64,000 bases of DNA, taken from the NCBI RefSeq assembly GCF_009914755.1, contig NC_060945.1, one strand, 5' to 3'. Below the pieces are notes generated by a model. That model made no database searches. It saw only the letters and a program-made list of their open reading frames with translations, and was not told the origin of the DNA. Positions within the stretch are counted from its first letter, which is position 1; every line of letters starts with the position of its first letter. The position numbers were made by a program, and so were the translations under genes. This stretch comes from the human T2T-CHM13v2.0 reference genome, Homo sapiens. Positions 16,244 through 64,000 of the stretch are shown here, piece after piece.

Positions 16244-16855
16244 TCCACTCCACTGCATTCCATTCTGTCCCATTCCATTCCACTCCATTCCACTCCACCT
16301 CACTCCACTGCACTCCGCCCCACTCCATTCCATTCCATTACATTACATTCCACTCCATTCCATTACATTCATTTCTTTCGACAGGATCTCACTCTGTAAC
16401 CCAGGCTGTAATGCAGTGGCACAATCTCAGCTCACATTACATTTCACCTTTCCATTCCATTCCATTGCATTCCATTCCTTTCCATTCTATTCCATTCCAC
16501 TCCACTCCAAACCACTCTACTCGACTCCACTCCACTCCATTCCATTCCATCCCATTGCATTCAACTCCACTCCACTCCACTCCTTTCTTTTGACAGTTAT
16601 CTCACCCTGTCAACCAGCCTGGAGTTAAGTGGCACAATCTCAGCTCACATTTCATTTCACCATTCCATTCCAATCCATTCCACGACATTCCATTCCATTG
16701 CATTTCATTCAATTCCATTCCACTCCATTCCATTCCATTCCACTCCACTCCACTCCACTCCACTCCATTCCAATCCATCACACTCCCTTTCACTACATTG
16801 CATTCCACTCCACTCCACTCCCTTCTATTCCATCCCATTGCATTAAACTCCACTC

Positions 16856-16968
16856 CACTACACTACACTGCACTACACTACACTACACTCCACTTCACTA
16901 CACTACACTACACTACACTACACTACACTACACTACACTACACTACACTACACTACACTACACTACAC
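16856..16968 (+). repeat. (CACTA)n pentamer microsatellite expansion
   Basis: About 20 mostly perfect CACTA units, a pentamer variant that is otherwise rare in the array. Confidence 0.9.
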
Positions 16969-61000: not shown

Positions 61001-64000
61001 TCCACTCCACTCCACTCCACCCCACTCCATTCCACTCCACTCCACTCCACTTCACTCCACTCCATTGCATTCCACTCCACTCCACTCTTTTCCATTCCAT
61101 TCCATTTAATTCCATTCCATTGCACTCCCATCATCTCCACTCAGCTCCACTCCACTCCACTCCACTCCCTTCTGTTCCGTTCCATTCCATTCCATTCCAT
61201 TCCATTCCATTCCTTTCCATTCCATTCCACTCCATTCAATTCCATTCCACTCCATTCTGCTCCACTCCATTCCACTCCACTCCACTCCACTCCACTCCGT
61301 TCCATTCCATTCCTTTCCTTTCCACTACAGTCCGATCCCCTCCACTCAACTCCACTCCATTGCACTACACTCCACTCTGTTCCATTCCATTCCGTTCTGT
61401 TCAGTTCCGTTCCGTTCCGTTCCGTTGCATTCCTCTCCATTCCATTCCACTCCACTCCATTTAACTCCACTCCTTTTCACTCCATTCTAATCCATTCGTT
61501 TCCATTCCACACCACTCCTTTCCATTCCATTCCACTAAATTCCATTCCATTCCTTTCCAAACCACTCCACTTCATTCCACTCCACTCCACTCCATTCCTC
61601 TTCAATCCATTCCACTCTACTCCACTCCATTCCACGCTATTCCATTCCGTTCCACTCCATTCCATTTCATTCCATTCCACTCCATTCCACTCGATTCGAC
61701 TCCACTCCATTCCAATGCACTCCACTCCATTCCACTCCATTCCATTCCACTTCACTCCATTACATTCCACTTCACTCCATTCCATTCCATCCAACTACAT
61801 GCCATTCCGTTCTCTTATTTAGACTGAATCTCACTCTGTCACCCAGACTGGAGTGCAGTGGCAGAATCTTAGATCACATTTCATTTAACCATTCCATTCC
61901 AATCCATTCCATTCGACTCCATTCCATTCCATTCCACACCACTCCATTCCACTCCACTCCACTCCATTCCATTCCACTGCACTCCATTCCATTCCTTTCC
62001 ATTCCATTCCACTGCACTCAGATCAGCTCCACTCAACTCCACTGCACTCCATTCCACTCCATTCCTATCTGTTGCATTCCTTTCCATTCCATTCCATTCC
62101 ATTCAATTCCACTCCACTCCATTCCATTCTTCTCCATTCTACTCCATTCCACTCCTCTCCACTGCACTCCACTCCACTTCATTCCATTCCATTCCATTCC
62201 ACTCCATTCCATTCCATTCCACTCCATTCCACTCCATTCTACTCCATTCCTTTCCATTCTATTCCTGTCCTTTCCACTACACTCCATTCCACTCCACTCT
62301 ACTCCATTCCCCTCCATTCCATTCCACTCCAATCCATTCCATTACATTCCACTGCATTCCATTCTATTCCTTTATTTCTATTGGATCTCACTCTGTCACC
62401 AAGACTGCAGTGCAGTGGCAAAATCTTAGCTCACATTACATTTCACCCTTGCATTCCATTCCATTCCTTTCCATTCCATTCCACTCCAATCCATTCCATT
62501 ACATTCCACTCCATTCCATTCTATTCCTTTATTTCTATTGGATCTCGCTCTGTCACCAAGACTGCAGTGCAGTGGTAAAATCTTAGCTCACATTTCATTT
62601 CACCCTTGCATTCCATTCCATTCCTTTCCATTCCATTCCAGTCCACTCCACTCCAATCCATTCCATTCCACTCCACTCCATTCTATTCCTTTCCATTCCA
62701 TTTCATTCCATTCCACTGCACTCCCATCTTCTCCACTCAACTCCACTCCACTCCCTTCTGTTCCATTCCATTCCATTCTTTTCCATTCCTTTCCGTTCCA
62801 TTCCATTCCACTTCGCTCCATTCCATTCCACTCCACTCTTCTCCACTCCATTCCACTCCACTCCACTGCACTCCGTTCCATTCCATTCCATTCCATTCCA
62901 TTCCACTACAGTCCGATCCCCTCCACTCACCTCTACTCCACTGCACTACACTCCACTCCGCTCGATTCCGTTCTGTTCCATTCAGTTCTGCTCTGTTCCA
63001 TGCCGTTGCATTCCACTCCATTCCATTCCACTCCATTCTATTGCACTTCATTCCAATCCATTCCTTTCCACTCCATTCCACTCCATTGCATTCCATTCCA
63101 CTCCACTCCATTCCACTCCACTCCACTCCATTTTACTCCACTCCGTTCCAACTCACTCCTCTCCATTTCACTCCATTCCACTCCCTTCCACCCCATTCCT
63201 CTCCACGCCAATTTGTTCCATTCCAATCAATTCCATTCCATTTCACTCCATTCAACTCCATTCCACTCCATTCCAATCCACTCGATTCCACTCAACTCCA
63301 TTTCACTCCACTCCACTCTGTTACTTTCCATTGCATTCCTCTCCACTCCATTGCATTCCATTGCATTCCCCTCCATTACATTGCATTCCCTTCCATTGCA
63401 GTTCATTCCACTCCATTCCACTCTATTACACTCCACTACACTCCACTCCATTACACTCCACTCCATTCCATTAAACTCCATTCCATTCCACTACATTCCA
63501 TTCCACTCCATTCCTTTCCACTACATTCCTTTCCATTCCATTCCACTCCATTCCACTCCACTCCATTCCACTCCACTCCATTCCAGTCCACTCCACTCCA
63601 TTCCACTTCATTCCATTCCACTCCACTCCATTTCATTCCATTCTACTCCATTCCATTTCTTTCCTTAATTTCTGCTGGATCTCACTCTGTCAGCCAGACT
63701 GGAATGCAGTGCCACAATCTTATCTCACATTTCATTTCACCATTCCATTCCATTCCATTCAACTGCATTCCATTCCATTTCATTCCACTCCACTCCACTC
63801 CATTCGACTCCAATCCACTCCACTCCATTCCATTCCACTCCACTCCAAACCACTCAGTTCCTTTGCACTGCATGCCATTCCATTCCATTCCATTTCATTC
63901 CTTTCCACTGCCCTCCGATCCACTCCACTCAACTCCCCTCTACTGCACTCCACTCCATTCCGTTCCATTCCAATCCATTCCATTCCATTCTATTCCATTA
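55017..64000 (+). repeat. Unit 2 (partial, runs off the window) of the ~27.66-kb tandem duplication; corresponds to ~27360-36343
   Basis: Matches unit 1 by eye, apart from two 20-bp pentamer-count indels near 55.6 kb and 59.2 kb. Confidence 0.93.
56379..56675 (-). mobile_element. Duplicated copy of the AluYa5-type element (TSD 56364-56377 / 56676-56689)
   Basis: Identical by eye to 28702-28998, including the T16 tail, the TSD and the flanks. Offset is 27,677 bp. Confidence 0.95.

What the first reader, a model, noticed from the sequence alone, without database searches (positions are those of the whole stretch)
16380..63742. Composite satellite: an Alu 3'-end fragment amplified as a conserved cassette punctuating a (CATTC)n array
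Seen: about 53 copies of one ~60-70-bp cassette, all in the same orientation, with the same end points and the same linker (ATTTCATTTCACC), separated by variable pentamer tracts. Known: the core is the reverse complement of the last ~55 nt of an Alu right arm (GTGAGCTGAGATTGTGCCACTGCACTCCAGCCTGGGTGACAGAGTGAGATCCTGTC) followed by a GAAAG-type tail remnant. Inference: these are not independent insertions. One old Alu fragment became part of the satellite repeat unit and was co-amplified, giving a conserved-cassette / variable-spacer architecture that acts as an internal barcode of array history. Alu-containing HSat3 variants may already be catalogued, so novelty is not established.
Basis: partly seen in the sequence, partly recalled or inferred. 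Interest (0 to 1): 0.8.

Follow-up and report, generated by a model that had tools for sequence, protein, structure and literature searches.

The report
Alu-tail fragment fossilised in HSat3 satellite
A roughly 80-base piece made of the last part of one old Alu element is built into the repeating unit of a human satellite 3 array on chromosome 21p and was copied along with it, a kind of satellite make-up that is already described in print.

Summary
Window 16243-64000 is an HSat3 (CATTC/CACTC) array. It carries 51 full-length copies of one ~80-bp cassette plus 2 copies interrupted by a later Alu, which makes 53. All are on the + strand and all have the same two ends.

The core matches positions 222-287 of a genuine full-length Alu that lies in the window. 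That Alu sits inside one cassette with a 16-A run in its tail and a 14-bp target-site duplication. It shows what an independent insertion looks like; the cassettes have none of these marks.

The cassette is not specific to chr21. Its Alu/linker junction 19-mer occurs 737 times exactly and 2979 times with up to 2 mismatches in T2T-CHM13 (controls 0 and 10). It was seen on at least 14 chromosomes, and the per-locus consensus is almost the same everywhere.

A single origin is not rejected (AU p 0.64). Spacers change in whole pentamers.

The youngest layer is a tandem unit of about 27.66 kb with 0 substitutions between copies.

The phenomenon is in print in general terms (Altemose 2021 and Rhie 2023 preprints). 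I call it ordinary and already known.

The parts
1..16242 (.). Context: alpha-satellite monomers abutting the HSat3 array. The junction is at about 16242/16243.
   Evidence: Read directly. Naming it alpha satellite rests on recall of the monomer sequence. GC is 0.35-0.37.
16243..64000 (+). HSat3 array with the CATTC/CACTC strand on +. It runs off the window end.
   Evidence: 2786 CATTC and 2224 CACTC against 4 GAATG. GC skew is -0.7 to -0.87.
16372..16448 (+). cassette 1 (antisense Alu 3' end + tail remnant + linker)
16582..16662 (+). cassette 2
17015..17094 (+). cassette 3
17421..17500 (+). cassette 4 (used as query)
17898..17977 (+). cassette 5
18367..18444 (+). cassette 6
18698..18777 (+). 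cassette 7
19146..19223 (+). cassette 8
19813..19891 (+). cassette 9
19986..20060 (+). cassette 10
20325..20404 (+). cassette 11
20897..20976 (+). cassette 12
21273..21352 (+). cassette 13
21669..21748 (+). cassette 14
22045..22124 (+). cassette 15
22397..22476 (+). cassette 16
22660..22738 (+). cassette 17
23005..23084 (+). cassette 18
23358..23434 (+). cassette 19
23913..23991 (+). cassette 20
24259..24337 (+). cassette 21
24596..24675 (+). cassette 22
25116..25195 (+). cassette 23
25804..25881 (+). cassette 24
26540..26619 (+). cassette 25
26907..26985 (+). cassette 26
27240..27318 (+). cassette 27
27755..27831 (+). cassette 28
28647..29035 (+). Cassette split by a later full-length Alu. 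The cassette halves are 28647-28700 and 28999-29035.
28701..28998 (-). Independent full-length Alu insertion with a run of 16 A in its tail. It is flanked by the 14-bp target-site duplication GATTGTGCCACTGC (28687-28700 and 28999-29012).
   Evidence: Sequence read. Rfam Metazoa_SRP hit at 28716-28863(-), E 2.6e-12.
31656..31735 (+). cassette 29
33056..33133 (+). cassette 30
33238..33315 (+). cassette 31 (182-bp local duplicate of cassette 30)
34157..34234 (+). cassette 32
34712..34790 (+). cassette 33
34869..34947 (+). cassette 34 (157-bp local duplicate of cassette 33)
36006..36085 (+). cassette 35
36844..36920 (+). cassette 36
40625..40704 (+). cassette 37
42189..42263 (+). cassette 38 (the HMM match ends at position 75; full length in the alignment)
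43676..43753 (+). cassette 39
51116..51193 (+). cassette 40
53492..53571 (+). cassette 41
54229..54308 (+). cassette 42
54871..54950 (+). cassette 43
55412..55488 (+). cassette 44 (identical duplicate of cassette 28)
56324..56712 (+). Duplicate of the split cassette. The inserted Alu lies at 56378-56675 (-).
59313..59392 (+). cassette 45 (duplicate of 29)
60713..60790 (+). cassette 46 (duplicate of 30)
60895..60972 (+). cassette 47 (duplicate of 31)
61814..61891 (+). cassette 48 (duplicate of 32)
62369..62447 (+). cassette 49 (duplicate of 33)
62526..62604 (+). cassette 50 (duplicate of 34)
63663..63742 (+). cassette 51 (duplicate of 35)
27373..36343 (+). Start of one ~27.66-kb tandem unit. 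It is repeated at 55030-64000.
   Evidence: 20-mer offsets 27657 and 27677. 0 mismatches and 2 gaps over 8971 bp. A third copy lies beyond the window at chr21:10252274.
55030..64000 (+). Second copy of the ~27.66-kb unit, cut by the window end.

Best explanation
What it is. One Alu element came to lie in an ancestral (GGAAT)n satellite, with the Alu sense strand on the GGAAT strand. Only its last ~56 nt survived (from GTGAGC... to ...CTGTC), together with a short A-rich tail remnant (GAAAGAAAGG). A fixed 13-nt pentamer-like linker adjoins its 5' breakpoint.

How it spread. This ~80-bp block became part of the satellite's repeat unit, one cassette per roughly 320-390 bp of pentamers in most of the 16 loci sampled elsewhere. 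It was multiplied passively by the processes that multiply satellites: unequal exchange, replication slippage in 5-bp steps, and later segmental duplication between pericentromeres and acrocentric short arms. It has no retrotransposition of its own and no demonstrated function. It is a molecular fossil that marks a lineage of HSat3.

The window shows three layers. The first is old cassettes that differ by about 18% pairwise. The second is local higher-order repeats of 2.6-5.2 kb and small duplications of 157 and 182 bp. The third is a very recent tandem unit of ~27.66 kb.

Shown: the Alu homology, the shared breakpoints, the constant orientation, the genome-wide spread, the 5-bp register and the layering. 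Inferred: the order of events, the mechanism of truncation and the age.
For: 1. Homology. 51 of 51 cassettes match the in-window full-length Alu within its positions 222-295 (36 of the 51 start at 222), with E from 3e-17 to 0.014. The cassette consensus differs from the consensus of 37 sampled real Alus at 7 of 56 columns. Five of these are the five CpG sites, all read as TpG.

2. Shared ends. The 51 window copies align almost without gaps and have the same ends. In 16 further 10-kb loci on 13 other chromosomes, 299 of 329 HMM hits are full length, with one strand per locus. The per-locus consensus is the same in 13 of 17 sets; the window set and chr10/chr17 differ by a few bases.

3. Orientation. 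The cassette lies on the CATTC strand in 17 of 17 sets.

4. Internal control. A true independent Alu inside one cassette is full length, keeps most of its CpGs, and has an A16 run in its tail and a 14-bp TSD. No cassette has these marks.

5. Abundance. The Alu/linker junction 19-mer occurs 737 times exactly (control 0) and 2979 times with up to 2 mismatches (control 10). The tail-junction 19-mer occurs 222 times exactly (control 0).

6. Single origin. Cassettes versus Alus need 3 label changes on the tree against a shuffled mean of 33.5. The one-clade tree is not rejected (p-AU 0.643) and had a better likelihood than the free search.

7. Register. Cassette-to-cassette distances are congruent to 2 mod 5 in 196 of 332 cases, where 20% is expected.

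8. Layering.

9. Print. [quoted passage not shown] Rhie 2023 preprint, passages seen: HSat3 blocks intermingled with Alu fragments on Y and the acrocentrics.
Against: The tree rests on only 56 columns. 117 of 151 inner branches are unresolved, and the free tree did not recover a single clade (3 changes). Monophyly is therefore 'not rejected' rather than shown; the shared breakpoints carry the argument.

The Rfam SRP model did not hit any cassette at E <= 1. It hit only the full-length Alu and, weakly, the SVA.

The Alu subfamily cannot be fixed from 56 nt. The Rhie 2023 preprint calls HSat3-associated fragments AluY-derived. Here the progenitor had lost all five CpGs, and the copies are 10.7% diverged at non-CpG columns, about the same as mid-age Alus at 10.2%. 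That fits an older capture, unless satellites mutate faster.

The 16 comparison loci were chosen from matches to the cassette, so they overstate its density in HSat3 at large.

No ape genome could be searched.
Confidence: 0.9

Rival explanations
1. The pentamer tract itself was born from the Alu. The A-rich tail of one Alu mutated into a GGAAT-type pentanucleotide repeat and expanded, as happens at disease loci. The unit [Alu 3' end + tail-born pentamers] was then amplified in tandem. On this reading the cassette is the seed of this HSat3 lineage, not a passenger in it.
For: The Alu sense strand runs straight from ...CTGTC into GAAAG AAAGG AATGG AATGG with no break. GGAAT lies on the Alu sense strand in 17 of 17 sets, which is the polarity expected of a poly(A) derivative. 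A review, passages seen, states that the disease-causing pentanucleotide expansions, including (TGGAA)n of SCA31, all lie in poly(A) tails of Alus (PMC9099484).
Against: One insertion into an existing array gives the same polarity with a probability of one half, so the polarity does not discriminate. About 3000 cassettes at about 400 bp each amount to roughly 1.2 Mb. The Altemose 2021 preprint gives 47.6 Mb of HSat3, so most HSat3 lacks the cassette. The 5' side of the fragment also abuts pentamers through a pentamer-like linker. That fits an insertion into pentamers as well as it fits tandem duplication.
Confidence: 0.06
2. The cassettes are many independent, 5'-truncated Alu insertions drawn to a preferred target in the pentamer array.
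For: Alus do insert into this array: one full-length copy lies inside a cassette.
Against: There are identical 5' and 3' breakpoints and an identical linker in 347 aligned copies from 17 sets. There are no poly(A) tails and no TSDs. All copies share the same five CpG-to-TpG changes. The one real insertion looks quite different.
Confidence: 0.01
3. The core is not Alu-derived. It comes from another 7SL-related or Alu-like source, such as the Alu-like part of an SVA, or the resemblance is chance.
For: Rfam's SRP model does not reach the cassettes. An SVA lies 4-6 kb upstream of the array.
Against: 51 of 51 copies match a true Alu at one fixed place. The cassette HMM matches the SVA's Alu-like part only over HMM positions 23-64, at 24 bits, against 68-90 bits for cassettes. 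The cassette consensus equals the sampled-Alu consensus at 49 of 56 columns, and 5 of the 7 differences are CpG decay.
Confidence: 0.02

Closest known systems
HSat3 with embedded transposon fragments, as stated for T2T-CHM13 and T2T-Y (Altemose et al. 2021 preprint 10.1101/2021.07.12.452052; Rhie et al. 2023 preprint 10.1101/2022.12.01.518724)
   Same: The satellite, the acrocentric and Y locations, and the statement that old TE fragments are part of the repeating units and that HSat3 blocks are intermingled with Alu fragments all agree (passages). Their finding that fragments do not cluster by chromosome agrees: 11 of the 15 groups listed (17 in all) show no clustering.
   Different: The passages I could read give no breakpoints, linker, copy number or 5-bp register. 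They call the fragments AluY-derived and see no local homogenisation. Here the window array does cluster (21 changes against 47 shuffled), and the copies look as old as mid-age Alus. Their supplements and figures were not available to me.
HSat1B / DYZ2, a ~2.5-kb satellite unit with one Alu subunit per repeat (Frommer 1984, cited; Rhie 2023 passages)
   Same: An Alu piece is fixed inside a satellite unit and amplified with it, on Y and the acrocentrics.
   Different: DYZ2 has a discrete unit of fixed length and a long Alu subunit. Here only ~56 nt of Alu survive, and the spacer varies, giving start-to-start distances of 157 to 7442 bp in the window.
Nested tandem repeats of HSat2 and HSat3 (term from the Altemose 2021 preprint)
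   Same: Irregular long units built from a diverged pentamer, with several nested periods. The window shows 157 and 182 bp, about 1.4 kb, 2.64, 4.1 and 5.1 kb, and 27.66 kb.
   Different: None of substance. The cassette is simply a convenient landmark inside such units.
Pentanucleotide repeats born in Alu poly(A) tails, such as SCA31 (TGGAA)n and SCA10 (ATTCT)n (review PMC9099484)
   Same: An Alu 3' end is directly followed on its sense strand by a GGAAT-type pentamer tract.
   Different: Those are single euchromatic loci next to whole Alus. Here the Alu is a 56-nt stump repeated thousands of times inside megabase heterochromatin.
Satellite III clone shared by chromosomes 13, 14 and 21 and contiguous with alpha satellite (Vissel, Nagy and Choo 1992; title seen in a reference list; the clone name pTRS-2 is)
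   Same: The window has HSat3 directly abutting alpha satellite at 16242/16243. The junction region is 98.4% identical on chr13 and 90.7% on chr14.
   Different: The paper was not held, so identity with that clone is not tested.

Membership tests
Alu-derived sequence | Significant similarity to an Alu right arm at a consistent position | tested here: met
   51 of 51 copies hit the in-window Alu within positions 222-295. 49 of 56 columns are identical to the consensus of 37 sampled Alus.
Alu-derived sequence | A-rich 3' tail | tested here: inconclusive
   Only GAAAGAAAGG follows the Alu end, and it merges into pentamers.
Independent retrotransposed Alu copies | Individual target-site duplications, poly(A) tails and varied truncation points | tested here: not met
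   347 aligned copies share both ends and both flanks. The single true insertion, with a TSD and an A16 run in its tail, serves as a positive control.
HSat3 | Array of diverged CATTC/GGAAT pentamers on one strand | tested here: met
   2786 CATTC and 2224 CACTC against 4 GAATG in 16243-64000.
HSat3 subfamily A4 (Altemose 2014) | Presence of the subfamily's most common specific 24-mer (Table 1 of PMC4022460) | tested here: inconclusive
   There are 0 hits in the window for any of the 14 marker 24-mers. The A4 marker hits only the chr10 (5), chr17 (3 and 1) and chr16 (1) loci. One 24-mer per subfamily is too little to decide, and the T2T subfamily track was not available.
Composite satellite with a discrete unit (DYZ2 type) | Fixed unit length with one TE piece per unit | tested here: not met
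   Start-to-start distances range from 157 to 7442 bp in the window. Median spacing is 268-794 bp in the other loci.
Single-origin co-amplified fragment | Copies form one clade against other Alus | tested here: inconclusive
   3 label changes against a shuffled mean of 33.5. The AU test does not reject one clade (p 0.643). The tree has only 56 columns.

The most novel reading that the evidence does not exclude
The cassette-bearing HSat3 lineage did not merely capture an Alu. It began as a pentanucleotide expansion of that Alu's poly(A) tail, the same process that creates (TGGAA)n at the SCA31 locus, and was then amplified to megabase scale. If so, part of a classical human satellite would trace back to a SINE tail.
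Probability: 0.06. Interest if true: 0.6.

Novelty: already known. Interest (0 to 1): 0.2.

Why it matters
Mostly as a tool. The two junction 19-mers are specific markers for one HSat3 lineage: they have 0-10 control matches against 222-2979 true matches. The cassette also gives fixed anchor points in an otherwise featureless pentamer array. These anchors can be used to align units, to count 5-bp slippage events, and to follow block exchange between acrocentric short arms. Such exchange bears on Robertsonian translocation regions. The cassette also offers a relative clock. The fragment's age, the nested young Alu shared by chr13, chr14 and chr21, and the 27.66-kb unit with no substitutions date three phases of array growth. 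It does not change what is known about satellites.

Tried and rejected
Self-alignment. A megablast self-alignment of the array gave only long 73% pentamer-slippage alignments. A stricter run returned no rows, and a chunked blastn run hit the time limit. I replaced these with an exact 20-mer offset count.

Subfamily markers. Marker 24-mers from Altemose 2014 gave no hit in the window, so the array's subfamily is not assigned.

Alu subfamily. This is left open. The GCTGAGAT stretch looks like the mid-age or young sampled Alus. The ...CCTGTC end looks like the older sampled Alus, and also like the young in-window Alu.

Rfam. No cassette was hit at E <= 1.

Papers not held. Choo 1990 (PMC332295), Bandyopadhyay 2001 (PubMed 11330397) and Jarmuz 2007 (PMC1821104) could not be read. 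Bandyopadhyay 2001 is the paper the Altemose 2021 preprint cites for TE fragments in HSat3, so a fuller description may be in print there.

Other limits. Earlier findings of this scan were not open. The Alu sample is therefore small, at 36 elements.

Literature searches for an explicit description of this cassette found only the general statements quoted above.
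Full report
**What is in the window**

Positions 1-16242 are AT-rich (GC 0.35-0.37). They read as alpha-satellite monomers; that name is from recall of the monomer sequence. An SVA-like element interrupts them at about 10.44-12.16 kb.

At 16242/16243 the alpha satellite abuts a pentamer array directly. The array runs to the window end. It has 2786 CATTC and 2224 CACTC against 4 GAATG, and a GC skew of -0.7 to -0.87. 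By composition this is HSat3. The hub places the window on chr21p of T2T-CHM13.

**The observation**

I used one copy (17421-17500) as a blastn query. It found 57 hits inside 16372-63742, all on the + strand, and one outside the array, in the SVA's Alu-like part.

- 51 hits are full length. They align almost without gaps and share both ends.
- An HMM built from these copies finds the same set.
- The other six hits belong to one locus and its duplicate. There a cassette is split by a later Alu (28647-28700 | Alu 28701-28998 | 28999-29035, and again 27677 bp further on).

Mean pairwise identity of the 51 full copies is 81.8%, with a range of 67.5-100%.

**The core is an Alu 3' end**

The window supplies its own reference Alu. 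Rfam's signal-recognition-particle RNA model hits 28716-28863 on the minus strand (E 2.6e-12). Read on that strand, the sequence is a full-length Alu with a tail holding a run of 16 A. It is flanked by a 14-bp direct repeat, GATTGTGCCACTGC.

All 51 cassettes match this Alu on the same strand, within its positions 222-295. Of these, 36 start exactly at 222.

I also took 36 euchromatic Alus from four 10-kb stretches. Against the consensus of all 37 Alus, the cassette consensus is identical at 49 of 56 columns. Five of the seven differences are the five CpG sites, all read as TpG. The other two are an adjacent CT/TC swap. Rfam itself did not reach the short cassettes.

**One captured fragment, not many insertions**

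- The nested full-length Alu is a positive control for an independent insertion. It is full length and has a poly(A) tail, a TSD and mostly intact CpGs.
- The cassettes have none of these marks. They share one 5' breakpoint with a fixed 13-nt linker, one 3' end with the same tail remnant, and conserved pentamers on both sides.
- A maximum-likelihood tree of 121 cassettes and 37 Alus on 56 columns needs 3 changes of the label, against a shuffled mean of 33.5 (0 of 500 shuffles as low). The cassettes were 25 of the 50 from the window and 6 from each of 16 other loci.
- A tree that holds the cassettes together is not rejected (p-AU 0.643), and it scored better than the free search.
- The tree is weak: 117 of 151 inner branches are open. 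The breakpoints carry the case.

**It is not a chr21 feature**

The window's genome could be searched.

| Search | Matches | Control |
|---|---|---|
| Alu/linker junction 19-mer, exact | 737 | 0 |
| Alu/linker junction 19-mer, up to 2 mismatches | 2979 | 10 |
| Tail-junction 19-mer, exact | 222 | 0 |

Listed matches and a 120-nt search fall on chromosomes 1, 3, 4, 9, 10, 13, 14, 15, 16, 17, 20, 21, 22 and Y. Only the first 100 places of each pattern search are listed, so this list may be incomplete.

In 16 fetched 10-kb loci the HMM finds 6-31 copies each. 299 of 329 hits are full length, always on one strand per locus, and always on the CATTC strand.

The per-locus consensus of 347 aligned copies is the same in 13 of 17 sets (two copies at locus edges were dropped). 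The chr10 locus and the two chr17 loci share a 1-nt deletion and a different 5' flank. The window set carries three variant bases that come from its sparse part.

About 3000 copies at a typical spacing of 320-390 bp amounts to roughly 1-1.5 Mb. That is a few percent of the 47.6 Mb of HSat3 reported in the Altemose 2021 preprint. This is a rough inference, because the sampled loci were chosen from cassette matches.

**How the array grew**

- Distances between successive cassettes are congruent to 2 mod 5 in 196 of 332 cases. Spacers therefore change mainly by whole pentamers, as expected of slippage and in-register unequal exchange.
- In the window the first 11 kb are dense: 27 distances of 171-737 bp, with a median of 376 by my count. 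The rest is sparse, with distances up to 7442 bp.
- Nearest-neighbour cassettes and 20-mer offsets show local repeats of 157 and 182 bp, about 1.4 kb, and 2.64, 4.15 and 5.11 kb.
- The youngest layer is a tandem unit of ~27.66 kb. Positions 27373-36343 and 55030-64000 differ by no substitution and by two 20-bp gaps. The Alu/cassette junction recurs a third time just beyond the window.
- That same nested Alu junction is also present on chr13 (99%) and chr14 (98%). The alpha-satellite/HSat3 junction region is 98.4% identical on chr13. So the block was exchanged among acrocentric short arms after the young Alu had landed.
- Across all loci, cassettes do not cluster by chromosome in 11 of the 15 groups listed. 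The window, chr9 and chr10 do cluster, and 56 sets of identical rows span more than one locus. Old copies moved as blocks by segmental duplication fit this pattern.

**Age**

Cassettes are 10.7% diverged from their own consensus at non-CpG columns. In the same columns, mid-age Alus are 10.2% diverged, the oldest sampled Alus 13.1% and the two youngest 5.4%. The age classes are simply identity bands to the in-window Alu.

If rates were equal, the amplification would be about as old as the mid-age Alus, and the progenitor had already lost all its CpGs. This sits uneasily with an AluY origin as stated for HSat3-associated fragments in the Rhie 2023 preprint. However, satellite mutation rates are unknown, and their set may include different fragments, such as the nested young Alu seen here.

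The Alu subfamily cannot be called from 56 nt.

**Comparison with what is known**

[quoted passage not shown] It cites Bandyopadhyay 2001 for this, a paper I could not obtain.
- The Rhie 2023 preprint (passages) describes HSat3 blocks intermingled with Alu fragments on Y and the acrocentrics, without clustering by chromosome.
- Altemose 2014 (passages and Table 1) does not mention Alu in its main text.
- Seven full-text searches found no text that gives the breakpoints, the linker, the copy number or the 5-bp register. Figures, bioRxiv supplements and the older clone papers were out of reach.

I therefore rate the finding as already known in kind. The details above are a modest addition.

**The boldest reading left open**

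The Alu sense strand runs without a break into GGAAT pentamers. A review states that disease pentanucleotide expansions, (TGGAA)n included, all arise in Alu poly(A) tails. The lineage could thus have started as a tail-born repeat rather than as an insertion into an existing array.

The small share of HSat3 that carries the cassette, and the pentamer-like sequence on the 5' side as well, make this unlikely. I give it about 6%.

**Verdict**

The feature is an ordinary, already described kind of satellite architecture. It is useful as a marker rather than surprising.

Noticed in passing
window 28701-28998 (-) and 56378-56675 (-): A full-length young Alu with a run of 16 A in its tail and a 14-bp TSD is nested inside a cassette. 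The same insertion junction is found on chr13 (99%) and chr14 (98%), and three times on chr21 about 27.66 kb apart. It therefore dates block exchange among the acrocentrics. Rfam mir-1268, mir-3135 and mir-1954 hits, all below their gathering scores, fall on this locus: mir-1268 and mir-3135 lie within the Alu, and mir-1954 spans its 3' end and the adjoining cassette half.
   Followed up: partly
window ~10440-12160 (+): An SVA-like element lies inside the alpha satellite. It has a CCCTCT hexamer run, an antisense Alu-like part, a GC-rich VNTR (GC 0.56 for 10-12 kb), a SINE-R-like part and an A-rich end. The name is from recall of SVA structure. Rfam gives only weak SRP and snoR125 hits there.
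   Followed up: no
window 16242/16243: Alpha satellite joins HSat3 directly, without a spacer. The first cassette starts 129 bp later. The junction region is 98.4% identical to chr13:13171657-13174776 and about 91-95% identical to stretches on chr14, chr15, chr13 and chr21.
   Followed up: partly
window ~16860-16965: A pure run of about 20 CACTA/ACTAC pentamers, a local variant expansion inside the array.
   Followed up: no
all cassettes; consensus: All five CpG sites of the Alu fragment are fixed as TpG on the Alu sense strand, and none as CpA. Deamination on the same strand five times over has a chance of 1 in 16 (two-sided), so this is not significant.
   Followed up: no
G000 chr3:95.52-95.54 Mb, chr13:5.13-5.15 Mb, chr14:1.43-1.45 Mb, chr15:1.65-1.66 Mb: The tail-junction 19-mer recurs at nearly the same spacings in these four places. 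This suggests that one HSat3 block was copied between chr3 and three acrocentric short arms. The same holds for chr4:49.53-49.55 Mb and chr13:10.63-10.65 Mb.
   Followed up: no
L013 (chr10:38.98 Mb), L015/L016 (chr17:27.82 and 22.50 Mb): The cassettes here share a 1-nt deletion and a different 5' flank (CATTCTAAATCC). They have wider spacing (medians 566-794 bp). Together with chr16, these are the only loci that carry the HSat3A4 marker 24-mer. They form a distinct sub-lineage.
   Followed up: partly
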